Virus record (IMG/VR): IMGVR_UViG_3300050821_005889
Strand: one strand, 5' to 3'
Length of the DNA: 64,000 nt
Origin: a virus
This document shows positions 2,637 through 50,686 of this stretch, one piece after another (within the stretch, counting starts at the first letter, position 1; each line of letters opens with the position of its first letter). Both the position numbers and the translations under genes were made by a program. The notes under the pieces were generated by a model. The model did not search any database. It saw only the letters and a list, made by a program, of their open reading frames with translations, and had not been told where the DNA came from.

Positions 2637-2903
2637 TTAAATGCCTGCTATGTAAACATCCCCGTCCCATGAAATATTCCATCCTTTGTTCCACCACCAT
2701 TTCGTTATGACATAACTACCATTATAAATAAACCAGAGCCTTGTCTCTTCGTGCATTCGGACGCCCTTGATATGGGTCTTATTTTGTTTGATTGCATCAA
2801 GTATAAGCGCCTCAACTCTTGCTATCTCATCTGGATAAGAATTAATGACGGCCTTCTTTACAACTTTAGCAGCCTCGTCTGCGGTTATGAATTTTTCTTT
2901 CAT
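2637..2903 (-). CDS. Hypothetical protein (88 aa), Trp-rich C-terminus
   Basis: ORF track, leftward array. Confidence 0.55.
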   Translation of the reverse strand: MKEKFITADEAAKVVKKAVINSYPDEIARVEALILDAIKQNKTHIKGVRMHEETRLWFIYNGSYVITKWWWNKGWNISWDGDVYIAGI

Positions 2904-2916
2904 GGCATTGTATGTT

Positions 2917-3282
2917 TTATCTTACTTCAATTATTACCTTCTTTGGCATCACATAAAAGTTCTGGTAGTCCTTTTTGTATTCCTCTTCCTGGTCGGCAAG
3001 GAAGACCTGTAGTGCATCATAGATGCGGTCAGATGTGGTATAATCATCCTTCCATACATGGGTGATTTCAAACTTATCGGTAAGGAACTCTGCAAGCCGG
3101 TAAAGGGCTACAGTGCCACCCTCTTCATATTCAGTGTACCCCATGTGGCTACCTGTGATAGCGCCACCCATAAGGTACAGGGTAACTTCATAGTGTACCT
3201 CCTGCCAGCTTGTGAACCCGTTAGGGAAGAATTTGCGGTCAGCCTTAGCTACGCTCTTGATGTAATGTCTGCGGGTGTCCAT
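2917..3282 (-). CDS. Hypothetical protein (121 aa)
   Basis: ORF track, leftward array. Confidence 0.6.
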   Translation of the reverse strand: MDTRRHYIKSVAKADRKFFPNGFTSWQEVHYEVTLYLMGGAITGSHMGYTEYEEGGTVALYRLAEFLTDKFEITHVWKDDYTTSDRIYDALQVFLADQEEEYKKDYQNFYVMPKKVIIEVR

Positions 3283-3286
3283 AGGT

Positions 3287-3592
3287 TTATTTTCTTTTAA
3301 AGAACATTCCTGTAGTTTGAAGTATATTTCTTAATGTCTCGGCAGTATTTTTATTATTGCAGTCTGCAATACATACAAGCCCTTGTCCGGGAATATGGGC
3401 AAATACACTATAAAAAGTAGCCTGCTTTTCTTCTACCTGTTCCTCCCATCTCATAACACCTCCATTTTTACCTTTTATACTTACAGGCTTTCTTAAAACG
3501 TCCATAGGGAAAACTATAAAATCTTCCAGCTTAACACCATGCGGAATCTCTTCGGGATGGAATGTTATCTTGGAATCAAATTTCTTTTTCAT
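3287..3592 (-). CDS. Hypothetical protein (101 aa)
   Basis: ORF track. 4-nt gap to the downstream gene. Confidence 0.6.
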   Translation of the reverse strand: MKKKFDSKITFHPEEIPHGVKLEDFIVFPMDVLRKPVSIKGKNGGVMRWEEQVEEKQATFYSVFAHIPGQGLVCIADCNNKNTAETLRNILQTTGMFFKRK

Positions 3593-5373: not shown

Positions 5374-5460
5374 AACTGTTTAGTTAGTTTACACGCCCCG
5401 TGTATCCATTCGGCAGCGTGTGCTCACTATCTTGTTCCGGCTTGCAACGGAGTAAACAGT
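5374..5460 (-). repeat. Two-hairpin intergenic element, copy A
   Basis: Contains GTTTAGTTAGTTT, then stem ACACGC(5391-5396)/GCGTGT(5416-5421), then GTGTGCTCACTAT, then stem TCCG(5436-5439)/CGGA(5448-5451) with an 8-nt loop. Same block order as 8152-8231. Confidence 0.55.
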
Positions 5461-8151: not shown

Positions 8152-8231
8152 TGTGTTAACAGTTTAGTTAGTTTGCAGCCTTTCGGCTGTGTTCACTATT
8201 ATCATTGCGGACTTACAACCGCTAACTGTTT
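8152..8231 (-). repeat. Two-hairpin intergenic element, copy B
   Basis: Contains GTTTAGTTAGTTT, then stem GCAGCC(8175-8180)/GGCTGT(8185-8190) whose loop reads GAAA on the transcribed strand, then GTGTTCACTAT, then stem GCGG(8207-8210)/CCGC(8219-8222) with an 8-nt loop. Confidence 0.55.
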
Positions 8232-29888: not shown

Positions 29889-31684
29889 TGGCTGACGATT
29901 TAAAATATAATGACATAGGGGAAGACCAGGTAGAAGACTCTAATGACTCAGAGGTAATTACCGGGCAGGACACCCCTGCGGAAGCATACGGTGCCGGTGT
30001 CGCCGCTTACCAGCAGGCTGCAAGAAAAAATAAAGACAACGGCTCAACTCCGTATAGCCCCATAGCCGCAGCCCTTTCCAGAACACGCAACAGTGCGCAA
30101 CAGATTCCGGGAGTCCCCGGAAGTATTTCTACAGACCCTGGTACACCAGGGATAACAAGAGACCAGGCATATCCTTCCGCTCCTGTAAGGATGCAGGATT
30201 TGCCGGGAAGGTATTTTGGTGCCACTCCTATATTTCTTGGTGGCCAGCCACTGTATCCTGTATCATTGGAAGAAGCCCGTAGGCGTTCCAATAATGATTA
30301 CATGGCGTCACAGGAACAGGCAAGGCAACAGAATGAAAACACGCTGTTCACAAATCTTACAAGGCAAAAGGTAGCCCCTGCATACCAGGAAAAGGCGGAT
30401 AAGATGCTGGATGACCTTTATGATGATTACTCAAAAACATTTGCGCAGAAAGGAAGATATGGTGCAGTAGCCGCTTATAACGACCCTAATAGCCCTGAGT
30501 TCAAAGAGTTTACACAGAAGTACCATAACTACCTGCAATCTACAGAGGCCATCAATCACATGGACACTCTTTTGTCGCAGGCGCAACAACGTCCACCCGA
30601 TGAATTATCCCCCGCTACCAAAGCCCAAATTATAAAATTCCAGACCGGAGGGTTTATGAACCCGGACGGCACTGTTGATACACAGACCCTACAAAAGTCT
30701 TATGTTGACCTGGCTAAATATATGGGCTATGATGGTATTATAAAAAGCATTGCACCCTATATAGCAAAGGATAGTGAATCATTTTTCCAGCAAGGAGCCA
30801 AAGATGCAAACGGGAAAGAAATATCTCCTCTTGATAATGACCACCAGTTTATAACAGAGGTTAAGAAAAATCCAAATTGGGACAAGCTCATTGATAGTAA
30901 GTATGTTCCTATGCTGCTTAGTCATGCCGGATTAAACCCTGCTCTCAATGACCCTAAAGCAGCGCACGATTATCTTAAGCAGATACTTCCTGAGTTCGTA
31001 GAAAAGCATTTCTATGATGTGCAAAGGTCTTCTGCAAGTGCCGGAGAAAATAAGGTGGCCAATGAAGGTAATTGGGTAGTTGATTTTGCCAACCAGGTAA
31101 GAGGCAGTAATGTAGATGGAGCCGTTCACACCGGCGGAGAAAATGATAACAACCCTCGCGGTGTGATGATGCAGGCTCCGGGAGACATGTCTACCAATAT
31201 CACTAATCCTAATTTCTTAAAATATATTGTAACAGGACAGGATGCCAACGGCAACGCTATTACAGCCCAGGACACCCGCAAAACAATAGTTAATCCTATA
31301 TCCGGTTTATGGAAGGACAATTCCACCGGAGATATATATAAAGTTCCTGCTGCTGCCAAAAATCCAACTACAGGAGATATTGATTGGGGGCAGGTACGCA
31401 CTCCGGCTAATAAAGTAACTAATATGTGGACGGATGTAATAGTTCCGTATTACAGAAGTGTAGGAGGGACTGGGGCAGAAACTAAATTGACCCAGATTCA
31501 AAAGAAAATGTGGACACAGCAACCGCAGGAAGCACAGGCTCTTGGTATTCCTCCACTCCCTAAAGGTGGAAATGCAGCCCCGGCAGCATCTGCCCCGGCT
31601 AAAACTATAGTAAGAACAGGAGTTGACAAGACAGGGAAAAAAGTAGTTCAATATTCAGACGGTACTGTAGGATATGCCCAATAA
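29888..31684 (+). CDS. Putative internal virion protein (598 aa)
   Basis: ORF track. Overlapping start and stop with its neighbours. Confidence 0.6.
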   Translation: MADDLKYNDIGEDQVEDSNDSEVITGQDTPAEAYGAGVAAYQQAARKNKDNGSTPYSPIAAALSRTRNSAQQIPGVPGSISTDPGTPGITRDQAYPSAPVRMQDLPGRYFGATPIFLGGQPLYPVSLEEARRRSNNDYMASQEQARQQNENTLFTNLTRQKVAPAYQEKADKMLDDLYDDYSKTFAQKGRYGAVAAYNDPNSPEFKEFTQKYHNYLQSTEAINHMDTLLSQAQQRPPDELSPATKAQIIKFQTGGFMNPDGTVDTQTLQKSYVDLAKYMGYDGIIKSIAPYIAKDSESFFQQGAKDANGKEISPLDNDHQFITEVKKNPNWDKLIDSKYVPMLLSHAGLNPALNDPKAAHDYLKQILPEFVEKHFYDVQRSSASAGENKVANEGNWVVDFANQVRGSNVDGAVHTGGENDNNPRGVMMQAPGDMSTNITNPNFLKYIVTGQDANGNAITAQDTRKTIVNPISGLWKDNSTGDIYKVPAAAKNPTTGDIDWGQVRTPANKVTNMWTDVIVPYYRSVGGTGAETKLTQIQKKMWTQQPQEAQALGIPPLPKGGNAAPAASAPAKTIVRTGVDKTGKKVVQYSDGTVGYAQ

Positions 31685-34600
31685 TAAAAAACCAGACCCG
31701 CAGGATATACAGTGGGACGCTCCGCATCCAAGTGATGTAACCTGGGATACACCCGCCACACCCCAGCCAGCTCCTGCCATGCCTGCACCTGCCCAGCAGG
31801 GAGGCAACATTGTACCTATGTGGTCTCATCAACAGGAGCCTGCACCTAATGCGCCGCTTGCATCTACTAACTATGGCGTGTCAGAAACAAATCAAAATGC
31901 ACCTGCGCAGCCCCCTTTAGAGTCTTCGGTTCCCGGTCAGCCAGATGCAACAGACAAGGCTCTTAAAAGGGCTAACGATTTTATAGACCAGGCGTCTGAG
32001 TTTTTACCGGAAGGAAATGTAAAGGATGTATCAACGCTGGCAGCAAAAGGTGCATTAGGAGCTGTCCAACAATTTAAGCAAGGTTCAGAACAGGTAGCAC
32101 AGGCCGGAGGTGTTCAGCAGGGAGCACAAGCTATTCCCACTTCGCAGAATGCACAGGTAGAACAGGATGCCTCAAAAGAAAATGTCGCATATAGTGGCGT
32201 AGCCACAATCGTAGGTCTTGGCAAAATGCTTATGGGCGTAGGGGCTCTTACTGTACCTGAAATTAATGCCTGGAACTATGGGTCTGCGGCATTGGCACAG
32301 TCCTCTCCGGGCGTAGCCACTCAGGTTAATAACTTCTTTTCTTCTAAAGCAGAAGATGACCCAAATTCTCCCAACTTCGGTAAGGTGATTATTCCTACAG
32401 GGGCGGCTCCTATAATCCTTGACTCTAATAAGCCGGGACAAAAAGCTGTCCTGGAGTTCCTTGATTTCCTTCCGCAGTTAGTACTTGGTGGTATGATTGC
32501 CGAAGGCGTTTCGGTAGACCAGGCAAACGAAATAGCATCCAAGATTAAAAAAGGAGAGGTGCTCACCCCGCAGGAAGATGCCATTGCCGCAAAAGGAACA
32601 CAAACATATCTGTCAGACCCTAAGAATATTATCACCAATGAGACCCTGGGCAAAATAAAGCCCGACCTGTCAGATGGTAAGAAGGTAGCCGTGGCTCCTC
32701 TTATTGAACAAAAGCAGGCACTGGAACAACGTAATGTAGGGCTACTTGAGTCTAAGGGCAAACTGGATTCTTCTTTTCATGATGACGTGGATAAAGAAGT
32801 TGCCGATAACGAGAAACAAATAGCTACCTTAACCCAACAAATAAAAACTAAGGCAAATGAAAAAGAAACTACGCCAGGCACTGCGCAAGGTGCCAATACC
32901 CAAGCCGACAACAGACCCGGCGAGAGCCAAGAGGGAGAAGGAGTGGGACAGCAGCAATTACAGGGAGGAGTACAAGGACAACAGCCTGGAGCAGATACAG
33001 GCACCCAACCTGATACCCAAGAAACTGTTGCGTCGAATGAAAAACCAGGGATAATCAATGCCCCTACAAAGCAAACGTCAGATGCGCTGGATGTTCAAGA
33101 ACCATCCGCAGATGGCAAAGGAATGGGCGTCGGAGACACCCAACCTCAAGGAACTACCGGAAAAGAAGAAGGTAGCGGAAACGCTAAAGGCGCACCGAAA
33201 GAAGAAATAAAACTGGAGTCACATCCTGGTTTTGAAGCCCCTGACCTCAAGGACTATGAAGGGAAAGATTCAGACCTGTTCCCGGAAAGGGAATGGGCTA
33301 ACAATCCTGACCGCGTTACCATGCGTGATGGCAATGAAGTAGGAACAACTTTCCGACAACTGGCCAAGCAGACCCAGGATGGAATGAAAGATGTTAAGGA
33401 CAATGCGCCTGATAACACTCTTATCACCACTCATTCCAAGAATGGCAGGATGATTAATGCCTTAAGAAAAGTGGGTGATGATATAGACCTGGATAGTGAT
33501 GAAGGAATAAAAAAAGTAGCTAAGGCATATCTTGCAGAACCCGATATAGAAAAGGGGGAGCCCCAAACCACAAAACTTGATAATGGAAAAACAGTGCATG
33601 TCGCTATGCACGGAACTACCGAGGACGACCTGAAAGATTTTAATTCCGGGCAGAGTCCAGTTAATCTTTCTAAGGAAGGCATCAAGGACAGCAAGGATAC
33701 AGCACAGGCAGTTGAAGATAAAAACATAAGCCATATTATCAGCTCTCCTACAGAGAGGGCAATGAAGACGTCTAAGATTATCCAGGAGCATCTTAATAAA
33801 CAGATAGCTGAACAGAAATCCAAAGAGCCTGTCATGTCCGCAGAGGACTTTGATAAACAAGGGCTCAACTACGGCCTACAGGAAGATGGTACACGTATGG
33901 AACCTGAGTTAAACATCAAGTTCAAAAAACCTATTACCAACAACCAGATGCGCCGCATCAACGAGGTGATGGATTTACCTAAAGGCGCATTATCCGAAGA
34001 TGGTAAGGAGCTTACTATAACCAACGATTCTAAAACAAAGACCCATGACCAATTCATTGCCGACGTCGCAGTCCTCAAAAACAAACTCAATGAGTTCAAG
34101 CGAGTTCCAACAGAAATTAACCAACGTGTTAGGAGACTGGCTTCCGAAGTTGAAGGGGGCACCGAAGCTGCTACACAGCCAGAAACCGGCAACAAGCCAG
34201 CCGAAACTGAACCAGCAAACACCAACACAGTCAATACCGGCAGTGAAGGCGGACAACCTGAACCAGTCCCCGGCGAACCCACTGGGACAACTGACGCCGC
34301 CAGACCAAACCAAGAATCAGAACCTGTAACACAGGCTGCTGGCTTTGCCGGTGGCGCAGAGCCTCCACAACCACCAGATGTGACAAGAGAGGGAGTATAT
34401 GACGATACGCCTGACTATAATAAATCTTCTTCACCTGTACAGGATTTCCTTAATGATACAAGAAGCGCCCCTAAGTTTGAACGAGATATAGCACAGAATG
34501 TAAAACAGCTCAACGGTATCAATAAGGCCAATACGCTCCGCGCTGTGAAGCTCATGGAAATGCTGCCGGATAAATTTAAAGACCCGGTACTCCAGGAGAA

Positions 34601-36950
34601 TGTATATCACCACATGGAAGACCCAACACTGACACTTACCGCAGACGAGATGGAGTTCAGGGATAAATATGTGGTTCCGGTGCTTAATGAGATTCAAGGG
34701 CTGTATCGTAAACTGGAAAAAATAGACCCTGAATCTGCGGCGGCGGCAATGAAAGATGCTGTTAATTATTTCCCGCGTCTGGCTAAAGACAAGCAGGGAA
34801 TCATTGACCGTATAATAAATGGAACTAAATACATAACCGGCGGCGGCTTATTAGGTAAAACAGCATCTTCTCTTAAAAGCCGTATTTATAAAGCCCTTAC
34901 AGATAATAATGGCAACAGGACGCTTGTAACTATGAAGGATGGAAGGGTTACGGCTTTGCATGGATTTGACGAAGATGGCAATTCTGTAACACAAGACCTG
35001 GGTGGATTTAAAAGAAGTGATAAAGGTCTTAGTACAAAAGAACTGAGAGATAAACAACTTAATGATGACCTGGGCTATGATAAAAAGATGGGCAAATTAC
35101 AGGCGGAGAAGAAAAATATCCAACGCTTCGCTGATGACCCTAAAGGACAAAGAAGGCTTGATTACATTGAGAAGAAAATTAATGACCTCAATGCAGCGAA
35201 AGACAAGATAAATGAACATTATGACGGTGTGCAAAAAGTAGATGACCTTAATGCAGAACGCACAGACCTTCGCAATTCATTAATTACTATAAAGGATAAA
35301 GAGCAAAGACAACAAGTGCAGGCTCGTATTGCAGACCTTCGGAAACAATCAGAAGACCTGGAAAACCAGATGCCTAAATACTGGGTAGACAAAAACGGTA
35401 AGTTTTATTCTATAGGTGAAGCTACAACCAAAGAGATTGAAGAAAAGTCCCCTACTCAATATTATCATACCCCATTTGCAAACGTGATGTCATCCTATCT
35501 TGACTTACAGAGGGCTGACACAGCAAATACATTTATTGACCACTTTAAAGAATCTCCAGAATTTAGTAAGATAGGCGTTCCTAAAGGCGACAAAACGGTT
35601 CCGGGAGATTGGCGCGAGGTATTACCTATACAATTTAAAGGATATGTTTTCGACCCTAAAACGGCGGCTAACTTAGATTTACTTTATCGCAATGGTAAAG
35701 CCGACCCACTTCAATCCCTTACTAATATAAATACATTCTTTCGGGATACTATAGTGCTTGGGCCGGGCGTAAAGCACTGGTATAATATTGCTGACCAATG
35801 GATAAAACAGGGAGGTTTAGTTACAAGGTTAACTAACCCGGTACGCACCACTAAGGCCATGATGAAAGCGTTCCATGATGTATCTACGCAGAGCCCGGAT
35901 TATTTTAAAGCCCTTGAGAATGGAGCAGGGTTAATGTACCGGGAAACGCAGGACGCTTCTAACCTGCTGCTTAAAGTAGCGCTGGAGCAAAAGAATCAGA
36001 CATGGTTCCAGAAGCTATCTGACAAGATGGGGTATGCTAATCCAGAAACATTATTTGAAGCACTTCGCAGCACTTCTCATAAATCTGCATTTTACGTAAA
36101 TGATATGTTGGTTATGCAGGCTATAAACGAAGAGGTTGCAAAAGGTAAGCCGTGGAGCGAAGCTGTAAAGGAGGTTCATAAATATCTGCCGGATTACCAG
36201 ATACCGGCTCAGGTGCTTGGCAGCGAGAACCTTGCAAAAGTCCTTCGCAACCCCAACCTGTTAACATTCGGCTCTTACCATTATAACATCATGGACTCAT
36301 ACGCTAATATGGCAAACGACCTGGGCAGGGCAATGAGTAATTCAGGTATGAGTGCTGCAGATAGGGGGCTTGCTGTCGACCGGGTGGCCACTGCTGCATT
36401 TATGCACTTTGCTTTCTATGCAGGACTTACGGCTCTGTATCATGCTGTTGGGGGAGATAAGGATAAAAAGATAGGGTCTTCCGGTGGCACTAAGTTCATG
36501 GATGATGCTATAGATTTCATTAAAGGGAATAAGAATTTAAGACAGTTTGTTCAGGGGTATTTCATGCCAGCCGTAGGAACACAGGCTGCCGCAGAGCTGA
36601 TAACCAATACCAAATTATCTCCTTACGAATCCGGTAATATATATACCCCCACCGATGTAAACAACCATCCCGGCGAAGCGCTTAAAGATATAGGCAAATA
36701 CCTTGAAACTAAAGTAGCACCACAGACATCACAGCTACAAAGCGGCAAACAGACCGCCGGTGATTTTATACAAGACCAATTACTCAATACAAAAATTGAC
36801 CGTACCGACCAGGAGCAGAAGTTTATGCAGCTCCTTCATGAAAGAGACCAGATAAACCAGAAGGTACATGACCTTAAGAAAAAGGGGAAGTATTCGGAGG
36901 CCACACAACTTCAACAACAGTATAACCAGGACTTGAATAATGCCAGGTAA
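31674..36950 (+). CDS. Giant putative internal/ejection protein (1758 aa) carrying a histidine-phosphatase-like module
   Basis: ORF track. Low-complexity Pro/Gln N-terminus, hydrophobic segments, coiled-coil region. At aa 641-700: VHVAMHGTTEDD...LSKEG...ISHIISSPTERAMKTSKII, which resembles the RHGxT...SSPxxRAxxT core. Confidence 0.75.
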   Translation: MPNNKKPDPQDIQWDAPHPSDVTWDTPATPQPAPAMPAPAQQGGNIVPMWSHQQEPAPNAPLASTNYGVSETNQNAPAQPPLESSVPGQPDATDKALKRANDFIDQASEFLPEGNVKDVSTLAAKGALGAVQQFKQGSEQVAQAGGVQQGAQAIPTSQNAQVEQDASKENVAYSGVATIVGLGKMLMGVGALTVPEINAWNYGSAALAQSSPGVATQVNNFFSSKAEDDPNSPNFGKVIIPTGAAPIILDSNKPGQKAVLEFLDFLPQLVLGGMIAEGVSVDQANEIASKIKKGEVLTPQEDAIAAKGTQTYLSDPKNIITNETLGKIKPDLSDGKKVAVAPLIEQKQALEQRNVGLLESKGKLDSSFHDDVDKEVADNEKQIATLTQQIKTKANEKETTPGTAQGANTQADNRPGESQEGEGVGQQQLQGGVQGQQPGADTGTQPDTQETVASNEKPGIINAPTKQTSDALDVQEPSADGKGMGVGDTQPQGTTGKEEGSGNAKGAPKEEIKLESHPGFEAPDLKDYEGKDSDLFPEREWANNPDRVTMRDGNEVGTTFRQLAKQTQDGMKDVKDNAPDNTLITTHSKNGRMINALRKVGDDIDLDSDEGIKKVAKAYLAEPDIEKGEPQTTKLDNGKTVHVAMHGTTEDDLKDFNSGQSPVNLSKEGIKDSKDTAQAVEDKNISHIISSPTERAMKTSKIIQEHLNKQIAEQKSKEPVMSAEDFDKQGLNYGLQEDGTRMEPELNIKFKKPITNNQMRRINEVMDLPKGALSEDGKELTITNDSKTKTHDQFIADVAVLKNKLNEFKRVPTEINQRVRRLASEVEGGTEAATQPETGNKPAETEPANTNTVNTGSEGGQPEPVPGEPTGTTDAARPNQESEPVTQAAGFAGGAEPPQPPDVTREGVYDDTPDYNKSSSPVQDFLNDTRSAPKFERDIAQNVKQLNGINKANTLRAVKLMEMLPDKFKDPVLQENVYHHMEDPTLTLTADEMEFRDKYVVPVLNEIQGLYRKLEKIDPESAAAAMKDAVNYFPRLAKDKQGIIDRIINGTKYITGGGLLGKTASSLKSRIYKALTDNNGNRTLVTMKDGRVTALHGFDEDGNSVTQDLGGFKRSDKGLSTKELRDKQLNDDLGYDKKMGKLQAEKKNIQRFADDPKGQRRLDYIEKKINDLNAAKDKINEHYDGVQKVDDLNAERTDLRNSLITIKDKEQRQQVQARIADLRKQSEDLENQMPKYWVDKNGKFYSIGEATTKEIEEKSPTQYYHTPFANVMSSYLDLQRADTANTFIDHFKESPEFSKIGVPKGDKTVPGDWREVLPIQFKGYVFDPKTAANLDLLYRNGKADPLQSLTNINTFFRDTIVLGPGVKHWYNIADQWIKQGGLVTRLTNPVRTTKAMMKAFHDVSTQSPDYFKALENGAGLMYRETQDASNLLLKVALEQKNQTWFQKLSDKMGYANPETLFEALRSTSHKSAFYVNDMLVMQAINEEVAKGKPWSEAVKEVHKYLPDYQIPAQVLGSENLAKVLRNPNLLTFGSYHYNIMDSYANMANDLGRAMSNSGMSAADRGLAVDRVATAAFMHFAFYAGLTALYHAVGGDKDKKIGSSGGTKFMDDAIDFIKGNKNLRQFVQGYFMPAVGTQAAAELITNTKLSPYESGNIYTPTDVNNHPGEALKDIGKYLETKVAPQTSQLQSGKQTAGDFIQDQLLNTKIDRTDQEQKFMQLLHERDQINQKVHDLKKKGKYSEATQLQQQYNQDLNNAR

Positions 36951-45738: not shown

Positions 45739-46557
45739 CTATATTAAGCCGGTAATGTGGTCTGGCCTTGCCTGCCATATACATCCCTCTCTAAAATATT
45801 CGTAAGACCTGTGTATATACCAGGATAGCCTTTCCAGGTACACCTTATAAGAAACTCCTGCGAGAATCAGTTCCGGCTTAGATTTTTTAAACCTGATGAC
45901 CTTCTTTTTATGAAGTTCCTTTTTAAGTCTACGTCCTGTTGATTTACTTCGCCCACAAAGGATTCCTGATAATTTATCTGATATAAAAACAATGGGTTTA
46001 TGTCCATATTTATTTTTACCTTTTACCGGCATTGACTGTTGACATCTTTTCCTATTGTAATTAGATTTGATAAGCAATCCTCTTATGTGTACTACTACGT
46101 CATGTTTGGAGCCATTTTTAAATGAAATTATTTTGTATGTGTGGGTGTATCCTGTCAGTTCTTTAGTGGCTCTGTTGATAGATACTAAATGCCATCCATG
46201 CTTATTTTTCCAGGCAAGTCCAAGCTCCCTTAAGGCTTTAAGCCAGTTTGCAAGTGTGTTACGGTTAATGCCCTGATGTGTTAAGTTATGGATGTGTCCT
46301 GATTTCCATTTTCGTTTGAGCTTAAGCCAGATGGCAAGCATTGGGATATGGTTATTATCTGCCGCCCATTTAACTAAAGGGAATGAGACCTTTATAGTGT
46401 CTCGGTTGAAATGCGAAAGCCCCCTGGGTTGAACAGGAGGCTTTGCAGTATGCTTAGGCGTGCGGGTGCTTAGTCCGCTTATTACCGTTGGAGAATCTTT
46501 CGATTCAAACGCCTTTAGCGGGTCTTCAACTGTACAAATATAGGCACTATTATTCAA
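45739..46557 (-). CDS. Hypothetical protein (272 aa), possible DNA-binding; TTG start, so the start is uncertain
   Basis: ORF track. Contains NTLANWLKALRELGLAWKNKHGWHLVSI. Confidence 0.55.
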   Translation of the reverse strand: MNNSAYICTVEDPLKAFESKDSPTVISGLSTRTPKHTAKPPVQPRGLSHFNRDTIKVSFPLVKWAADNNHIPMLAIWLKLKRKWKSGHIHNLTHQGINRNTLANWLKALRELGLAWKNKHGWHLVSINRATKELTGYTHTYKIISFKNGSKHDVVVHIRGLLIKSNYNRKRCQQSMPVKGKNKYGHKPIVFISDKLSGILCGRSKSTGRRLKKELHKKKVIRFKKSKPELILAGVSYKVYLERLSWYIHRSYEYFREGCIWQARPDHITGLI

Positions 46558-46558
46558 C

Positions 46559-46604
46559 GGTAATAAAATTTAAGCATCACAAATATGTTAATAATTTTAT
46601 TACC
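46559..46604. repeat. Perfect 12-bp inverted repeat GGTAATAAAATT / AATTTTATTACC with a 22-nt spacer
   Basis: Arms at 46559-46570 and 46593-46604. Lies between the start of 45739..46557 and the RNA genes. Confidence 0.6.
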
Positions 46605-46648
46605 TGCCAACTTTGTTTATCCCCACAACAAATGTTAATATTGCAGGC

Positions 46649-46732
46649 AGGAAGGAGGCTGGCAGGAGTTCAAATCTCTCTTGGTGCCGCAAGGCGCTAT
46701 AGTTTAATTGGCGGAGAACACCTTCCTTACAT
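46649..46732 (+). ncRNA. Circularly permuted tRNA-like element (order: 3' half, GCAA tetraloop, 5' half)
   Basis: Hand-folded. GAAGG 46651-55 pairs with CCTTC 46721-25. T-arm is GGAG 46665-68 / CTCT 46676-79 with loop TTCAAAT. A 7-bp acceptor-like helix TGGTGCC 46682-88 / GGCGCTA 46693-99 is capped by GCAA. TA follows at 46700-01. D-arm is GTTT 46702-05 / GAAC 46716-19 with loop AATTGGCGGA. It ends in CTTACAT (46726-32). Confidence 0.5.
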
Positions 46733-46805
46733 TGCGGTGTAGAGCAGTTGGTAGCTCGTCAGGCTCATAACTTGAAGGCCGGTGGTTCGAGTCCACTCAC
46801 CGCTA
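46733..46805 (+). tRNA. tRNA with CAU anticodon (Met or lysidine-modified Ile2); no encoded CCA
   Basis: Hand-folded cloverleaf. Acceptor 46733-39 / 46798-804 has a U1-U72 mismatch plus 6 Watson-Crick pairs. D-arm is GAGC/GCTC with loop AGTTGGTA. Anticodon arm is TCAGG-CTCATAA-CTTGA. T-arm is GGTGG-TTCGAGT-CCACT. Confidence 0.85.
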
Positions 46806-46916
46806 CAACTAAACTAAAAACGAATGTGGGAACGATTCAGACACAGGTGGTTCAGACGACATCACCATCACAAACATCACTTAGTATTCAAATTAATTCA
46901 CAAACATAATAATCAC

Positions 46917-47282
46917 ATGGCCAACTACATCACAACCCTGGAACTTCCAGATTCAACCCCGGCTCCCATTACAGTACAACTGGTGGGACTGGCGGCAGAC
47001 GGCGTTACCGTACTGCCAATTACCAACATTGCCTTTGCTTCTACAAGCACAGCCGTATTCACTATTGCCCAGGAAACAGCTAATCCTGCCAATGTAGACA
47101 TTACCATTGTAGCTGCCGGAACAGGCACTATTAATGGGACTGCTACATTCTCAGATGGCTCTACCGGGTCAGCAGTACTTACTGTAATCTTCGATGCTAT
47201 TGCTAAAACAGCTTCACTGGTATGGTCTTTAGTTAGCCCTGCACCAGCAGCTCCAGCAGCAGCACCTGTAGTTACAGCGTAA
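46917..47282 (+). CDS. Bacterial Ig-like (Big_2-type) domain protein (121 aa from MANYITT)
   Basis: ORF track frame 46824..47282. The His/Arg-rich first 31 codons are rejected. PITVQLVGLAADG...ASTSTAVFTIAQ...VDITIVAAGTGTINGTATFSDGS...AVLTV looks like Big_2. Confidence 0.55.
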   Translation: MANYITTLELPDSTPAPITVQLVGLAADGVTVLPITNIAFASTSTAVFTIAQETANPANVDITIVAAGTGTINGTATFSDGSTGSAVLTVIFDAIAKTASLVWSLVSPAPAAPAAAPVVTA

Positions 47283-48454: not shown

Positions 48455-50686
48455 ATGATATTCCCAACAGTCTCCCAAACCATGCACCCTTCCAGAACCT
48501 TACCGGAATCCGAGAAAGGGGAAGAGTATCACGTACAGTGGGGTAGGTACATACTATCACAAACCAATAACCCCATGTCGTTGTATAATATATACAAGTA
48601 TATTATCAACTGGAATTTCTATAAAGGCAATCAATGGATAATGAATGAAGACCTTGAGCCGTTCCTTAAGGACGATAGCGGGGATGTGCGCAACCGTATT
48701 CGTTGGTGTTACAATATTATACGTCCTTTTGTGCGTTCCCTTACCGGCAATTCCATTCTTAATTCCTATACAGTACGAGCTTATAACACTTCTGCTTATG
48801 TTGTTAAGCAGCGAGAAGAAGAGAAGGCCAAGCGGCTCCAGGCACATAAAATGATGGAGGGCATGCCTGCTTTAAAAAAATCATGGAGCAGCAAGATGAA
48901 CCTGGGAAAGACTCCGCAGGAATCGCTGGATAATTTCAGTAATGATAATATTGACATAGGAGAAATGCAGATGAACGCCCTTTTCCGCAGGGTGGAACGT
49001 ATGTCAAACTTCACCATGATGGACGAAGAGATAGTAAAGAACCTGGCGCTGGGCGGAATAGCCACTGTAAAAGAAGAGGTGATAAACGGAGAGTGGTGCG
49101 AACGCGTGATAGACCCTACTTATACTGTTATAGATACTTCTGCAACCTTGCCCGACCTGTCAGATGCTTCCTTTGGAGGAGACCTTGACCTGGATGATGT
49201 GACCCAGACCTTTGAGAAGTGGCCGGGACTCACAGATAGCGAAAGAGAAAAAATAGAACACTATGCAATGGCTGCCCAATGGCTCCAGAGCAGGTTTGAT
49301 TTCTGGACAAGGTTATTTGGTTCTATGTATGGAAGGGTGCCTATGTATAACTTATACTGGCACGACACAGAACCGCTTAAGTATGGATATATTAAAGATG
49401 AGAACGGTCTTACCATGTCTATCATCGACCATCCCAACAGCAAGTACACACAGAAGGATATAGTTCGTAAATCAAAACTACCTGCGGAGAAGAGAATAAA
49501 AGAAATGCAGGAGAGCGGGGTTCACATTAAGCATAAAGATATTATACGCTATATCTCTTTCATACCGGCAGAACTGGTTGGAGAAAATATAGTGGGCGAA
49601 TATGGTGTGTATCCTTATGATGAGGTGTATGATGAAGCCCCATTTGTAAATAAGCTACCTTATAAATATGCTACATACGATTACCGTTACGGAGAACTAC
49701 TTACTCCTACCGATACAATAGTTGACCCGCAACGTATGATGAACAGGTATCTTTCTATGATGGAGGGAGCCCTTAATAGTATGCGTGGTGCCAGTTATAT
49801 TTACGATAAGGGTATTATGGCGGACGAGGATGATGGGGAGTCGGAGATGAAGCGCAAGATGAATAAATCAGAGCCTATCGGGGTAGACGCTTCGCGTTAC
49901 GGAGGCAATGTGCAGAATGCTATTGTGCCTTATAGTAATACCGATATGCTTAACGCCGCCACCGGGTACACTACCATCCTCAATAATATAAAACTGATGA
50001 CCGAAAATACTACCGGGGTCAACCAGTATATGCAGGGGTTGGGAGCCGGTAAGAAATTAGCCGTGGGAGTACAGCAAAGCTCCATCGAACAGGGCACCCT
50101 AATGCAGCAGTCCTTCTATGCCCGTGTAGCTAATTTGTACCTGGACATCTATAAGAACATAGCTAACAGGGGACGTAAGTTCTACGCAAAAGATTCAAAG
50201 ATTATCTATGAGATGCTTCACGGTTCTTTGCAGGAGTTTAAATTTTTAAAGGATAACAGGTACCAGAATTTCCATGTAGAGCTTCGCAGGGTACCGGATT
50301 CCTTTACGGACATCGACCAGGTGAACCAGATGTTGTTCCAGTTAAAGCAACTTGACCTTATAGGAGATGAACAATTTGCTACCCTGTTTAGTCGCGCAGA
50401 ACTTGACCAGGTTTCTTCTGCTATATTGGAATATACGCGTAGTAAACAGAGGTTATCAGACCACATGCAGCAGGAGCAGCAACAGCAAAAACAGGAAGCG
50501 CAGGGTCAGCAACAGCAGGAGCGCCAGGATACATTTAACATGGCCAACAGCGATAAGCAGTTTAAGCTCATGGAGGAACATCTTAAGGGAGCCAATAAAA
50601 TTGATGCCATAAAAGCTAAGGGAGATACCGACCTGGCATACCAGATGCTGATTGCAAAAAGTAAAGAAAATCAAAACCAGGAATAA
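48455..50686 (+). CDS. Putative portal protein
   Basis: ORF track. 743 aa with a Gln-rich acidic/basic C-terminal tail (QQEQQQQKQEAQGQQQQERQ). Size and position are typical of portals. No search was run. Confidence 0.55.
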   Translation: MIFPTVSQTMHPSRTLPESEKGEEYHVQWGRYILSQTNNPMSLYNIYKYIINWNFYKGNQWIMNEDLEPFLKDDSGDVRNRIRWCYNIIRPFVRSLTGNSILNSYTVRAYNTSAYVVKQREEEKAKRLQAHKMMEGMPALKKSWSSKMNLGKTPQESLDNFSNDNIDIGEMQMNALFRRVERMSNFTMMDEEIVKNLALGGIATVKEEVINGEWCERVIDPTYTVIDTSATLPDLSDASFGGDLDLDDVTQTFEKWPGLTDSEREKIEHYAMAAQWLQSRFDFWTRLFGSMYGRVPMYNLYWHDTEPLKYGYIKDENGLTMSIIDHPNSKYTQKDIVRKSKLPAEKRIKEMQESGVHIKHKDIIRYISFIPAELVGENIVGEYGVYPYDEVYDEAPFVNKLPYKYATYDYRYGELLTPTDTIVDPQRMMNRYLSMMEGALNSMRGASYIYDKGIMADEDDGESEMKRKMNKSEPIGVDASRYGGNVQNAIVPYSNTDMLNAATGYTTILNNIKLMTENTTGVNQYMQGLGAGKKLAVGVQQSSIEQGTLMQQSFYARVANLYLDIYKNIANRGRKFYAKDSKIIYEMLHGSLQEFKFLKDNRYQNFHVELRRVPDSFTDIDQVNQMLFQLKQLDLIGDEQFATLFSRAELDQVSSAILEYTRSKQRLSDHMQQEQQQQKQEAQGQQQQERQDTFNMANSDKQFKLMEEHLKGANKIDAIKAKGDTDLAYQMLIAKSKENQNQE

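What the first reader, a model, noticed from the sequence alone, without database searches (positions are those of the whole stretch)
46649..46805. Circularly permuted tRNA-like element joined with zero spacer to a tRNA(CAU) gene
All the parts of a tRNA lie directly 5' of a normal tRNA(CAU), but in permuted order.
- GAAGG (46651-55) pairs with CCTTC (46721-25). This is an anticodon-stem equivalent, extendable by two more pairs.
- An 8-nt variable region follows.
- The T-arm has a canonical GTTCAAATC loop context (46665-79).
- A 7-bp acceptor-like helix, TGGTGCC/GGCGCTA with 2 G-U pairs, is closed by a GNRA tetraloop GCAA (46689-92) instead of having free ends.
- U8-A9 (TA) follows.
- The D-arm is GTTT/GAAC with a GG-containing loop.
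- A 7-nt CTTACAT has the canonical anticodon-loop form (C-U-UAC-A-U, i.e. a Val UAC anticodon).
- That 7-mer ends exactly where tRNA(CAU) position 1 begins, so RNase P cutting of the downstream tRNA would define its 3' end.

Imperfections: the T stem has only 4 good pairs, and one unpaired nucleotide (46681) separates it from the acceptor helix.

As far as I recall, this connectivity (ends at the anticodon stem, closed acceptor) is what is described for YrlA-type bacterial/phage Y-RNA-like ncRNAs. Permuted tRNA genes proper are otherwise known only from a few algae and archaea. No Ro/Rsr (TROVE) ORF is visible in this window. This would be unusual for a Bacteroidota-type phage.
Basis: partly seen in the sequence, partly recalled or inferred. 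Interest (0 to 1): 0.85.

Follow-up and report, generated by a model that had tools for sequence, protein, structure and literature searches.

The report
Permuted tRNA-like RNA fused to tRNA
Directly upstream of this phage's only normal tRNA lies a real 84-base RNA gene with all the parts of a tRNA in rearranged order and a sealed acceptor end; it most likely acts as a small tRNA mimic of the kind known from bacterial Y RNAs, but here without their Ro60 protein partner.

Summary
The un-permuted sequence is called tRNA-Val(UAC) by ARAGORN at default settings. Circularising every 70-121-nt segment of the window gives robust calls only at this locus. A covariance model built from unrelated permuted tRNA-like RNAs hits 46654-46725 at 40 bits (E 4e-9).

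The connectivity is that of the YrlA tRNA-like module: closing helix, T arm, capped 7-bp acceptor, UA, D arm, closing helix. A pattern scan shows this design is common in phages and usually sits about 0.5 kb from a Ro60/TROVE gene on the same strand.

This copy is not a YrlA:
- no TROVE gene in the whole ~72-kb genome;
- only a 7-bp closing helix;
- no Ro-binding stem.

It starts at a predicted Bacteroidota-type promoter start site and ends where RNase P would cut the adjoining tRNA(CAU).

The same phage lineage carries a second, strongly covarying permuted tRNA-like RNA next to a DUF7873 gene, so such modules are functional there.

Best reading (about 0.5): a compact, Ro60-independent tRNA mimic processed by tRNA enzymes. 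A working permuted or split tRNA-Val (about 0.1) and a tandem-tRNA relic (about 0.2) remain open. Novelty: new variant of a known kind.

The parts
46612..46643 (+). Predicted Bacteroidota-type promoter: -33 TTTG (46612-15), 20-nt spacer, -7 TAATATTG (46636-43). Predicted transcription start about 46648-46650.
   Evidence: The pattern TTTG-N19-21-TANNWTTG occurs 6 times in the window against 2.0 expected. Three of the 6 lie just upstream of gene or RNA starts (11302, 16975, 46612). The consensus is from my own knowledge (Bayley et al. 2000). The start site is inferred, not measured.
46649..46655 (+). 5' strand of the closing helix (AGGAAGG), at the position of the anticodon-stem 3' strand. Alternative register: GGAGG 46654-58.
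   Evidence: Pairs with 46721-46727 over 7 bp. The alternative register was chosen by the covariance model.
46656..46663 (+). Variable region AGGCTGGC (8 nt; 5 nt, CTGGC, in the alternative register).
   Evidence: Sequence; ARAGORN cloverleaf.
46664..46681 (+). T arm AGGAG-TTCAAAT-CTCTC plus one extra T (46681).
   Evidence: Canonical T-loop T54, T55, C56, A58 and the G53-C61 pair. There are 4 pairs plus an A.C mismatch.
46682..46699 (+). Closed acceptor hairpin TGGTGCC-GCAA-GGCGCTA (7 bp, 2 G.U pairs). GCAA can be read as N73-C-A-A; the same -CAA follows A73 of the neighbouring tRNA (46806-08).
   Evidence: RNase P cleavage 5' of G46693 is inferred by analogy with M. smegmatis YrlA (PMC4201824).
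46700..46720 (+). U8-A9, then D arm GTTT-AATTGGCGGA-GAAC (A14, R15, G18, G19, A21 all present), then A26.
46721..46732 (+). 3' strand of the closing helix CCTTCCT (46721-27) plus a 5-nt tail TACAT. Alternatively CCTTC plus an anticodon-loop-like CTTACAT.
46733..46805 (+). tRNA(CAU) with initiator-like features (U1xU72 mismatch, A11:U24, A73). Its RNase P site defines the 3' end of the element.
   Evidence: ARAGORN; Rfam tRNA 62.8 bits with non-canonical pair 1:72 flagged. The initiator rules are from my own knowledge.

Best explanation
Positions 46649-46732 are a genuine gene for a compact, circularly permuted tRNA-like RNA. Its order is: 7-bp closing helix, variable region, T arm, 7-bp acceptor capped by GCAA, U8-A9, D arm, closing helix.

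Inferred production:
- Transcription starts at a Bacteroidota-type promoter whose predicted +1 is the first base of the closing helix.
- The RNA is co-transcribed with the abutting initiator-like tRNA(CAU) and probably with the downstream structural genes.
- RNase P cutting at +1 of that tRNA releases an RNA of about 84 nt with a 5-nt 3' tail.

Inferred fold: all elbow nucleotides are present (U8, A14, G18G19, T54-Psi55-C56, A58), so it should adopt the tRNA L-shape.

Inferred function: a small tRNA mimic. This is the 'effector' tRNA-like module of YrlA Y RNAs without the Ro60-binding stem. It would be recognised by tRNA-handling proteins such as RNase P, the CCA-adding enzyme, TruB/Dus-type modifiers, or a host or phage tRNA-binding or tRNA-targeting factor that it titrates or recruits. 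It would not act as a decoder.

The acceptor is a full 7 bp stacked on a T arm. RNase P may therefore also cut between A46692 and G46693. Trimming and CCA addition would then give a two-piece, CCA-tailed tRNA-like RNA. This has been shown for M. smegmatis YrlA and is known for two-piece tmRNA.

Shown here: the anatomy, its statistical significance, the absence of Ro60, and the existence of functional permuted tRNA-like RNAs in the same phage lineage. Inferred: the transcript ends, the processing, and the partner and role.
For: - tRNA-likeness in permuted order: ARAGORN calls the un-permuted sequence a tRNA. It is unique in the window under a circularisation control. The independent covariance model R1 gives 40.1 bits, E 4e-9, equal to this phage's own DUF7873-linked RNA (39.9 bits).
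- The same design is established as a tRNA mimic. For YrlA there is a crystal structure, TruB and DusA modification, and RNase P cleavage plus CCA addition when the acceptor is 7 bp (PMC4201824; bioRxiv 10.1101/312249).
- The generic pattern (T-loop, N7-GNRA-N7, D-loop) found 121 matches in IMG/VR, 68 of them with 7/7 complementary acceptor strands. Of 92 unique closed-acceptor modules in the DNA fetched up to that point, 56 have a TROVE ORF in the locus. All 56 are on the same strand, at a median of 481 nt. So the design is a recurrent functional phage RNA module.
- Permuted tRNA-like RNAs are under selection in this lineage. L002 is a relative with 40% portal identity. L233 is the part of this phage outside the window. 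L002, L233 and 23 of the 24 IMG/VR DUF7873 loci (the 24th, L240, is cut 130 nt after the gene) carry such a module, 128-428 nt downstream of DUF7873 (mostly 130-176). In the 23 aligned cores (22 IMG/VR plus L002), 18 of 21 pairs show double-sided changes and 93.6% of cells are paired. The inner helix was not used for selection and all five of its pairs covary.
- The predicted promoter places +1 at the first base of the closing helix, and the 3' end coincides with the tRNA 5' end. There is no longer outer helix.
- Other phage closed-acceptor modules also sit a few nucleotides upstream of tRNAs.
Against: - No homologue of this particular locus was found, so there is no direct conservation or covariation for it. 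Searches: IMG/VR exact and degenerate patterns; metagenome contigs; GTDB genomes; INPHARED phages. The other fetched portal relatives show no such module in the about 20 kb held for each.
- The module is imperfect: a 4-bp T stem with an A.C mismatch, one extra U before the acceptor, an 8-nt variable region in the stable register, and a non-canonical 15:48 pair.
- No partner protein is identified, and expression and ends are unmeasured.
- The 7-nt C-U-UAC-A-U ending exactly at the tRNA, together with GTA being the phage's most over-used Val codon, fits a decoding role better than a pure mimic.
Confidence: 0.5

Rival explanations
1. It is a working circularly permuted (or split) tRNA-Val(UAC) gene. 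RNase P and 3' trimming plus CCA addition open the GCAA-capped acceptor. The anticodon loop is completed by joining U38 (46732, the 3'-OH left by RNase P cutting of the tRNA(CAU)) to G39 (46651), or the RNA works as a nicked two-piece tRNA. It decodes GUA.
For: - ARAGORN calls the un-permuted sequence tRNA-Val(tac) at default thresholds, with a 7-nt loop C-U-UAC-A-U (U33 and A37 canonical).
- The loop ends exactly at +1 of the next tRNA.
- GTA is 40% of Val codons. Its RSCU of 1.61 ranks 3rd of all codons and highest among A-ending codons.
- Opening of closed acceptor hairpins by RNase P followed by CCA addition has bacterial precedents (M. smegmatis YrlA; two-piece tmRNA, own knowledge).
- DUF7873-linked relatives have 17-203-nt intervening loops and a conserved T-C-N-A (TCCA in four) after the acceptor 3' strand. 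This looks like a processed 3' end.
Against: - No bacterial or phage pathway is known that joins a 3'-OH to a primary-transcript 5' end.
- No RtcB, RNA-ligase or other Pfam family was found in the 20 largest window ORFs (all ORFs of 300 aa or more), nor in the precomputed Pfam hits of the remaining 8 kb.
- The predicted start at A46649 adds two bases that pair with C32 and U33.
- There is no helix-bulge-helix motif or flanking helix.
- The discriminator is G, not the A73 used by ValRS (own knowledge).
- An extra U lies between the T stem and the acceptor, the T stem has 4 bp, and the variable loop is 8 nt.
- The analogous modules in L002, L233 and IMG/VR continue into internal loops and outer helices, with no anticodon loop.
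Confidence: 0.1
2. It is a non-functional evolutionary relic: the retained middle of two tandem, near-identical phage tRNA genes (3' half of copy 1, 3-nt trailer, 5' half of copy 2). The outer halves were lost to a promoter on the left and to fusion with tRNA(CAU) on the right.
For: - The acceptor strands of tandem identical tRNAs are complementary by construction.
- The loop G-CAA equals a discriminator plus the same CAA trailer that follows the neighbouring tRNA (A-CAA, 46805-08).
- The imperfections (A.C mismatch, extra U, long variable region) look like early decay.
- No conservation data exist for this locus.
- Sim and Wolin's model derives YrlA itself from dimeric tRNA transcripts (cited).
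Against: - Both breakpoints would have to fall exactly at the two sides of one anticodon stem, so that a 7-bp helix closes the module. They would also have to coincide with the predicted +1 and with the RNase P site.
- All four helices and all elbow nucleotides are intact.
- No relative with intact tandem genes was found.
- No tRNA with this D-stem and anticodon arm exists in 185,579 species genomes, nor in phage records.
- The same topology is demonstrably selected elsewhere in this lineage.
Confidence: 0.2
3. It is a bona fide Y RNA (YrlA) that works with a Ro60 protein supplied by the host or encoded elsewhere.
For: It has the same module order as YrlA. 56 of 92 comparable phage modules are Ro60-linked.
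Against: - No TROVE ORF was found even at E<=10 with a phage-TROVE HMM in the window plus L233, which together cover the whole 72-kb genome. Pfam found none either.
- The closing helix is only 7 bp with no extension, so there is no Ro-binding stem.
- The D and T stem sequences differ from the near-invariant YrlA ones.
- Rfam gave no hit.
Confidence: 0.05
4. It is merely a structured 5' leader that tunes RNase P processing or stability of tRNA(CAU) and the downstream late mRNA, with its tRNA-likeness incidental to that role.
For: It sits between the predicted +1 and the tRNA. No terminator lies before the first structural ORF at 46917.
Against: A leader needs no T-loop and D-loop tertiary nucleotides and no 7-bp acceptor. 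L002's tRNA(CAU) has only a terminator hairpin upstream.
Confidence: 0.1

Closest known systems
YrlA-type bacterial and phage Y RNAs (Chen et al. 2014, PMC4201824; Wang et al. 2018, bioRxiv 10.1101/312249)
   Same: - The 5'-to-3' order is identical: stem at the anticodon-stem position, variable region, T arm, closed acceptor-like stem-loop, UA, D arm, stem.
- The elbow nucleotides are conserved.
- The acceptor is 7 bp, as in M. smegmatis YrlA, which RNase P cleaves and which then receives CCA.
- YrlAs occur in phages, often among tRNA genes.
   Different: - No Ro60/TROVE gene anywhere in the genome.
- The closing helix is 7 bp instead of a long Ro-binding stem with a conserved 5' strand.
- No V hairpin.
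- The D and T stem sequences are not the conserved YrlA ones.
- It is fused with zero spacer to a tRNA and starts at the predicted +1.
- Total length is about 84 nt, against about 110-150 nt.
DUF7873-associated permuted tRNA-like RNA
   Same: - A class-I-type permuted tRNA-like core with a 5-bp inner helix, T arm, 7-bp acceptor, UA and D arm.
- It scores 40.1 bits on the core model, the same as this phage's own copy (39.9 bits).
- An N-C-N-A motif follows the acceptor 3' strand.
- It occurs in the same phage lineage.
   Different: - Not next to DUF7873. This genome's DUF7873-linked copy lies at L233 10929-11012.
- G73 instead of the invariant U73.
- A 4-nt loop instead of a 17-203-nt intervening loop.
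- It lacks the 5' domain with hexamer repeats, the outer helix, the TAGCNTTAGCNTAA motif and the terminator hairpin with a CGAAGGATATTGA loop.
- There is no nucleotide similarity in the flanks.
Circularly permuted tRNA genes of Cyanidioschyzon merolae, other algae and some archaea (Soma et al. 2007; own knowledge)
   Same: The 3' half precedes the 5' half and is joined through the acceptor ends by a short intervening sequence. The un-permuted sequence is recognised as a tRNA.
   Different: Those genes rely on a helix-bulge-helix motif, the splicing endonuclease, a ligase and a circular intermediate. No such motif is present here, bacteria lack that endonuclease, and no mature contiguous tRNA has been shown.
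Two-piece tmRNA from permuted ssrA genes (alpha-proteobacteria, cyanobacteria; own knowledge)
   Same: The gene order is T arm, acceptor 3' strand, intervening loop, acceptor 5' strand. It is a bacterial precedent for opening the closed acceptor by RNase P and 3' processing to give two base-paired pieces.
   Different: There is no tag reading frame, no pseudoknots and no G3.U70. A true D arm is present. ARAGORN finds no tmRNA.

Membership tests
YrlA Y RNA | tRNA-like module in the order T arm, closed acceptor-like stem-loop, UA, D arm, closed by a stem at the anticodon-stem position | tested here: met
   the definition is from PMC4201824 and bioRxiv 10.1101/312249.
YrlA Y RNA | Nucleotides for the tRNA elbow and core tertiary contacts (U8/A14, G18G19 with Psi55C56, T54-A58, Levitt 15:48) | tested here: inconclusive
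   All are present except the Levitt pair, which is A15 with C48 rather than G:C or A:U.
YrlA Y RNA | Long stem formed by the 5' and 3' ends that carries the Ro60-binding site | tested here: not met
   The closing helix is only 7 bp. The flanks form no significant further helix: duplex -19.4 kcal/mol against shuffled -15.5 +/- 3.3, with 67 of 500 shuffles as good. The upstream flank is the promoter and the downstream flank is a tRNA.
YrlA Y RNA | Encoded within about 4 kb of, and on the same strand as, a Ro60/TROVE gene | tested here: not met
   There is no TROVE hit in the window or in L233 (the rest of the genome) at E<=10 with a phage-TROVE HMM. Pfam found none. By contrast, 56 of 56 TROVE-linked modules are on the same strand at a median of 481 nt.
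YrlA Y RNA | Near-invariant D-stem and T-stem sequences of the family | tested here: not met
   Phage YrlAs mostly have GCTC/GAGC D stems and G/C-rich T stems. Here they are GTTT/GAAC and GGAG/CTCT.
YrlA Y RNA | Binds Ro60 in vivo | not testable with these tools
   Needs immunoprecipitation.
Circularly permuted tRNA gene (C. merolae type) | 3' half upstream of the 5' half, joined via the acceptor ends; the un-permuted sequence is a recognisable tRNA | tested here: met
   ARAGORN calls tRNA-Val(tac) at default thresholds; controls.
Circularly permuted tRNA gene (C. merolae type) | Leader and trailer form a helix-bulge-helix motif for endonuclease cutting and ligation into a circular intermediate | tested here: not met
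   There is no flanking complementarity. The 3' end abuts a tRNA and the 5' end abuts a promoter.
Circularly permuted tRNA gene (C. merolae type) | A contiguous, CCA-tailed, aminoacylated mature tRNA exists | not testable with these tools
   Needs RNA-seq or RT-PCR across the 38/39 junction and acid-gel northern blots.
   40.1 bits, E 4e-9. Training members score 49-69 bits.
   The DUF7873 gene of this genome lies outside the window (L233 10001-10810) and has its own RNA-A. There is no flank similarity.
   Here the sequence is G-C-A-A, against T-C-N-A in 21 of the 23 aligned cores (T and C invariant; the other two read TCTT).
Two-piece (permuted) tmRNA | Tag reading frame, pseudoknots and a G3.U70 alanine identity pair | tested here: not met
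   The ARAGORN tmRNA search is negative. The acceptor has C3-G70 and G4.U69. The element is only 84 nt.

The most novel reading that the evidence does not exclude
The element is a functional circularly permuted or split tRNA-Val(UAC) gene of a bacteriophage. RNase P (acting twice) and the CCA-adding enzyme convert the precursor into a two-piece tRNA, or a ligated one after end-joining. This tRNA reads GUA, the phage's most over-used valine codon. It would be the first permuted tRNA gene outside algae and archaea. It would also be processed without a splicing endonuclease.
Probability: 0.1. Interest if true: 0.95.

Novelty: new variant of a known kind. Interest (0 to 1): 0.62.

Why it matters
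For YrlA Y RNAs, the partner and purpose of the tRNA-like 'effector' domain are still unknown (Wang et al. 2018).

This element is that domain stripped to its core. It has no Ro60 and no Ro-binding stem, and it is wired into tRNA processing by direct fusion to a tRNA. That suggests the permuted tRNA-like fold is a functional unit in its own right. It also offers a minimal 84-nt bait for finding whatever binds it.

Together with the DUF7873-linked RNA found here, it indicates that Bacteroidota-type phages use several Ro60-independent families of permuted tRNA mimics.

If the minority reading is right (a working permuted or split tRNA-Val), it would overturn the view that permuted tRNA genes need the archaeal/eukaryotic splicing machinery.

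Tried and rejected
- Rfam 15, at gathering thresholds and at E<=10 on 46350-46950: only the tRNA; no Y-RNA or other family on the element.
- MFE z-score: not significant.
- blastn of the locus and of the un-permuted sequence against 50,697 phage records: only the tRNA(CAU) matches; there is no related tRNA-Val.
- Exact 38-mer in IMG/VR: none.
- Portal-based search for relatives in IMG/VR: none. The protein database gave 12 distant relatives (31-46% identity). Their fetched stretches (L001-L009, L225-L227) contain no homologous locus. L002 has a permuted module elsewhere.
- The 121-aa ORF after the divergent junction in L004 is not homologous to the window's 121-aa ORF. The 272-aa upstream ORF is not the DUF7873 gene.
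- Population variation: the only other contig fetched across the element locus is identical over 6,366 nt, so it gives no SNP information.
- Metagenome scan with a degenerate pattern: no copy of this element. It returned only other closed-acceptor modules.
- GTDB genomes: neither the permuted pattern nor the natural D-stem and anticodon arm was found. This gives no support for recent capture of a host tRNA-Val or for an attP-type origin.
- Longer outer helix spanning the tRNA: not significant.
- Nucleotide homology of the flanks to the DUF7873-linked RNA: none.
- DUF7873 function: PHROGs gave nothing and the literature search gave nothing. AlphaFold model with pLDDT 82. The Foldseek PDB search gave no significant hit.
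ARAGORN and a custom permuted covariance model were used instead.
Full report
**1. The observation**

- closing helix AGGAAGG (46649-55) with CCTTCCT (46721-27);
- variable region AGGCTGGC;
- T arm AGGAG-TTCAAAT-CTCTC (46664-80), with four good pairs and an A.C mismatch;
- one extra T (46681);
- a 7-bp acceptor helix TGGTGCC/GGCGCTA with two G.U pairs, capped by GCAA (46689-92);
- TA;
- D arm GTTT-AATTGGCGGA-GAAC;
- A26;
- CTTACAT, ending at 46732.

The only conventional tRNA of the window, tRNA(CAU), starts at 46733 (ARAGORN; Rfam tRNA 62.8 bits).

*Is it more than chance?*
- The un-permuted sequence (46693-46732 + 46651-46688) is called tRNA-Val(tac) by ARAGORN at default thresholds.
- As a control I duplicated every segment of 70-121 nt of the window (seg+seg contains all circular permutations) and counted tRNA calls spanning the junction on both strands. 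This locus gave 93 calls. The rest of the 64 kb gave four isolated singletons.
- A covariance model built later from 23 permuted tRNA-like RNAs of other phages (R1, which excludes this element) hits 46654-46725 with 40.1 bits, E 4e-9. Junctions of ordinary neighbouring tRNAs score 17-24 bits.
- Thermodynamic stability alone is not special (z = -0.89), and Rfam 15 has nothing for it even at E<=10.
- An independently assembled Logan contig is identical over 6.4 kb, so it is not an assembly artefact.

*Verdict:* confirmed.

**2. Context**

The window is most of a phage genome of about 72 kb, with a P22-type portal at 48455-50686 plus an HNH endonuclease and a resolvase. GC content is 42.7%.

The element lies in the divergent gap between leftward genes and the rightward module that includes the portal.

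A Bacteroidota-type promoter sits just upstream: TTTG, 20 nt, TAATATTG (46612-43).
- The pattern occurs 6 times in the window against 2.0 expected.
- Three of the six matches lie just upstream of gene or RNA starts.
- The consensus is from my own knowledge (Bayley et al. 2000).
- Its predicted +1, about A46649, is the first base of the closing helix.

No terminator separates the tRNA from the first ORF at 46917.

The inferred primary transcript is therefore: closing helix, module, tRNA(CAU), mRNA. RNase P cutting at 46732/46733 would release an RNA of about 84 nt with a 5-nt 3' tail.

The tRNA(CAU) has a U1xU72 mismatch (flagged) and A11:U24. By established identity rules (own knowledge), these are initiator-like features.

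**3. What kind of thing is it?**

- Chen et al. 2014 (PMC4201824) describe YrlA as a Ro-binding stem, an optional V stem-loop, a T stem-loop, an acceptor-like stem-loop and a D stem-loop. YrlA is found near Ro60 in more than 250 bacteria and in 22 phages.
- Wang et al. 2018 (bioRxiv 10.1101/312249) solved the structure. [quoted passage not shown]
- M. smegmatis YrlA has a 7-bp acceptor stem. It is cut by RNase P in vitro and in vivo, and its 5' fragment receives CCA.

I tested how general the design is. The pattern GTTCRANTC-N4-5-N7-GNRA-N7-TRG-N3-ARYYGG was scanned against IMG/VR.
In 68 of them the two N7 blocks are 7/7 complementary, far above the chance rate.
- These elements have long closing helices and usually a V hairpin.
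- Of 64 large neighbouring ORFs, 26 carry TROVE domains and 10 the Ro60 vWA domain.
- With a TROVE HMM built from them, 56 of 92 unique closed-acceptor modules in the fetched DNA have a TROVE ORF in the locus. All 56 are on the same strand, at a median distance of 481 nt.
- So the architecture is the phage YrlA architecture, and it is common.

**4. It is not a YrlA**

- The 20 largest ORFs of the window have no TROVE, RtcB or RNA-ligase domain.
- The about 8 kb of the genome missing from the window was recovered as L233.
- The TROVE HMM finds nothing in the window plus L233, even at E<=10.
- The closing helix is 7 bp. The flanks offer no significant further pairing.
- The D and T stem sequences differ from the near-invariant YrlA ones.

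The defining Ro60-related features are therefore tested and not met, while the tRNA-like module itself is present.

**5. Relatives, and a second permuted tRNA-like RNA in the same lineage**

*Search for the locus elsewhere.* The phage is isolated: the nearest portal is 46% identical. No copy of this particular locus was found anywhere.

*L002.* The circularisation test on relatives lit up one more place, L002 (portal 40% identical), with 930 calls. There a module follows a DUF7873 gene. Its parts, in order:
- inner helix CACAGG/CUUGUG;
- 5-nt variable loop;
- perfect T arm;
- acceptor CCCCGCC, a 20-nt loop, then GGCGGGG;
- UA;
- D arm;
- outer helix UAGGUAA/UUACCUA.

*This phage.* The window's own phage has the orthologous RNA downstream of its DUF7873 gene, outside the window. 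It lies at L233 10929-11012, with outer helix UAGGUGG/CCACCUA.

*IMG/VR.* DUF7873 is highly conserved, with 544 homologues; the 120 listed are 58-73% identical. Of the 24 IMG/VR loci that encode it, 23 carry the same module 128-428 nt after the stop codon (mostly 130-176); the 24th, L240, is cut 130 nt after the gene. The module has:
- an inner 5-bp helix;
- a 4-5-nt variable loop;
- a T arm;
- a 7-bp acceptor whose 3' strand is followed by T-C-N-A in 21 of the 23 aligned cores (T and C are invariant; TCCA in four);
- an intervening loop of 17-203 nt;
- the acceptor 5' strand, TA and a D arm.

*Covariation.* On the 23 aligned cores (22 IMG/VR plus L002), 18 of 21 pairs show double-sided changes and 93.6% of cells pair. 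Three helices were used for selection, so they are biased. The inner helix was not, and all five of its pairs covary. A subfamily with D loop AGTGATA has T loops TTTGAGT or TTTAAAT. This is consistent with a G19-C56 to A19-U56 tertiary swap.

*Status of this RNA.* It is not in Rfam and is not linked to Ro60. DUF7873 has no PHROG match, no literature and no significant structural match.

*Relation to the finding.* The window element scores the same on the core model (40.1 bits) as the phage's own DUF7873-linked copy (39.9 bits). It shares none of that RNA's flanking domains or sequence. It also has G instead of U at position 73. It is therefore a separate, more compact permuted tRNA-like gene, not a duplicate.

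*Other compact copies.* L234, another DUF7873 phage, has a second compact module with a 4-nt ACAA cap and a 10-bp outer helix (40.8 bits). Several phage modules lie a few nucleotides upstream of tRNAs. The window's module is the closest of the 96 such modules that do not overlap an ARAGORN tRNA: 13 nt from the D-arm end, which means zero spacer after the tail.

**6. How it most likely works**

*Best-supported reading (confidence about 0.5).* It is a small tRNA mimic, equivalent to the YrlA effector module without the Ro tether.
- It is made as the 5' part of the tRNA(CAU) transcript and released by RNase P.
- It folds into the L-shape and is recognised by tRNA-handling proteins.
- Because the acceptor is 7 bp on a T arm, RNase P may also cut 5' of G46693. 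Trimming of GCAA and CCA addition would follow, giving a two-piece CCA-tailed molecule. Precedents are M. smegmatis YrlA and two-piece tmRNA (own knowledge).
- The conserved T-C-N-A and the freely variable intervening loops of the DUF7873-linked family suggest such processing is part of how this class works (inference).

*Shown:* the anatomy, its significance, the absence of Ro60, and selection on the same topology in the lineage.
*Inferred:* the ends, the processing and the partner.

*Rival 1: a working permuted or split tRNA-Val (about 0.1).*
- For: the loop C-U-UAC-A-U is canonical and ends exactly at the tRNA. GTA is 40% of Val codons (RSCU 1.61, rank 3 of all codons).
- Against: there is no known joining pathway and no ligase gene. 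The predicted +1 adds two bases that pair with C32 and U33. The discriminator is G73. There is an extra U and a weak T stem. The related modules have no anticodon loop.

*Rival 2: a relic of tandem tRNA genes (about 0.2).*
- For: the G-CAA loop mirrors the A-CAA that follows the neighbouring tRNA. The module has imperfections.
- Against: the breakpoints are exact, and all helices and tertiary nucleotides are intact. No donor tRNA exists in 185,579 genomes. No relative has intact tandem genes.

*Rival 3: a canonical Y RNA using a host Ro60 (about 0.05).* It lacks the binding stem.

*Rival 4: a mere processing leader (about 0.1).* This does not explain the tRNA-specific loops.

**7. Novelty and verdict**

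What is new:
- the module is stand-alone and Ro60-independent;
- it has a minimal closing helix;
- it is fused to a tRNA and starts at the predicted +1;
- it occurs in a Bacteroidota-type phage that also carries a second, undescribed family of permuted tRNA-like RNA linked to DUF7873.

I classify it as a new variant of a known kind, with interest 0.62. The most novel reading not excluded is a functional permuted or split tRNA-Val. That has a probability of about 0.1 and would rate about 0.95 if true.

Noticed in passing
L233 10811-11200 (same phage, outside the window); L002 7366-6980 minus strand; L234-L257, about 2780-3300: An undescribed conserved RNA of about 300-350 nt lies directly downstream of DUF7873 genes. 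It has a covarying helix right after the stop codon enclosing tandem hexamer repeats (AGCYTT, 3-5 copies) and a TTAGTGTTG motif. Next come a permuted tRNA-like core with a 17-203-nt intervening loop and T-C-N-A after the acceptor in nearly all, a TAGCNTTAGCNTAA motif and an outer helix. It ends in a terminator-like hairpin with the conserved loop CGAAGGATATTGA. It is not in Rfam 15.
   Followed up: partly
L233 11085-11190; L002 7075-6983 minus strand; equivalent positions in L234-L257: After that RNA comes a tRNA-like gene with free acceptor ends and normal D and T arms, but with an anticodon arm expanded to about 26-150 nt. In some loci an ordinary tRNA takes its place, for example a tRNA with anticodon loop CTTATAC in L242. 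ARAGORN calls the L233 copy 'tRNA-???'.
   Followed up: no
DUF7873 protein: L233 10001-10810; P0014-P0133: This protein of about 265 aa is very strongly conserved: 544 homologues at E<=1e-5, and the 120 listed are 58-73% identical, across phages of 40-500 kb and a Cytophagaceae genome. The AlphaFold model has pLDDT 82. There is no significant PDB match, but most of the top weak Foldseek hits are Cas7-type CRISPR backbone subunits (E 0.009-0.1, TM about 0.1). Given the 6-nt repeats in the adjacent RNA this is a hint only.
   Followed up: partly
window 5376-5459 (-), 8159-8229 (-); L233 7631-7713 (+): Three type-P3 twister ribozyme matches above the Rfam gathering score lie in one phage genome, among small early genes: 47.6, 41.4 and 41.2 bits.
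   Followed up: no
window, all ORFs: Codon usage is skewed to codons that would match the two RNA genes at this locus. ATA is 47% of Ile codons; it would be read by a lysidine-modified CAU tRNA if the tRNA(CAU) were Ile2. GTA is 40% of Val codons. The tRNA(CAU) nevertheless has initiator-like features (1:72 mismatch, A11:U24).
   Followed up: partly
L023, L038, L043, L047, L054, L076, L083, L099, L107, L116, L230 5560-5770 and others: A second scaffold class of closed-acceptor tRNA-like RNAs has the conserved flanks ...ACAGCAA... and ...CCUGUUA plus a 7-10-bp outer helix. It often lies inside tRNA arrays and a few nucleotides upstream of a tRNA. L230 5560-5625 has the same scaffold without the tRNA-like insert. 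Four neighbouring large ORFs are DUF2828/DUF7788 rather than classical TROVE.
   Followed up: partly
L234 4425-4550: A stand-alone compact permuted tRNA-like small RNA lies in a DUF7873 phage. It has a 10-bp outer helix AAGUCACUUA/UAAGUGACUU, an acceptor capped by ACAA and a U-tract at the end. It scores 40.8 bits on R1.
   Followed up: no
L004 923-997 (-); L234 3965-4039 (+): There are putative suppressor tRNAs in related or DUF7873 phages: anticodon TTA (reads UAA) in L004 and TCA (called tRNA-SeC) in L234.
   Followed up: no
window 46413-46443 (+): A G+C-rich hairpin AGCCCCCTG-GGTTGAA-CAGGAGGCT lies at or just upstream of the possible ATG start (46440) of the leftward 233/272-aa ORF. Its function is unknown.
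   Followed up: no
window 31674-36950: A 1,758-aa ORF in the structural region carries a histidine-phosphatase (His_Phos_1) domain at residues 646-713.
   Followed up: no
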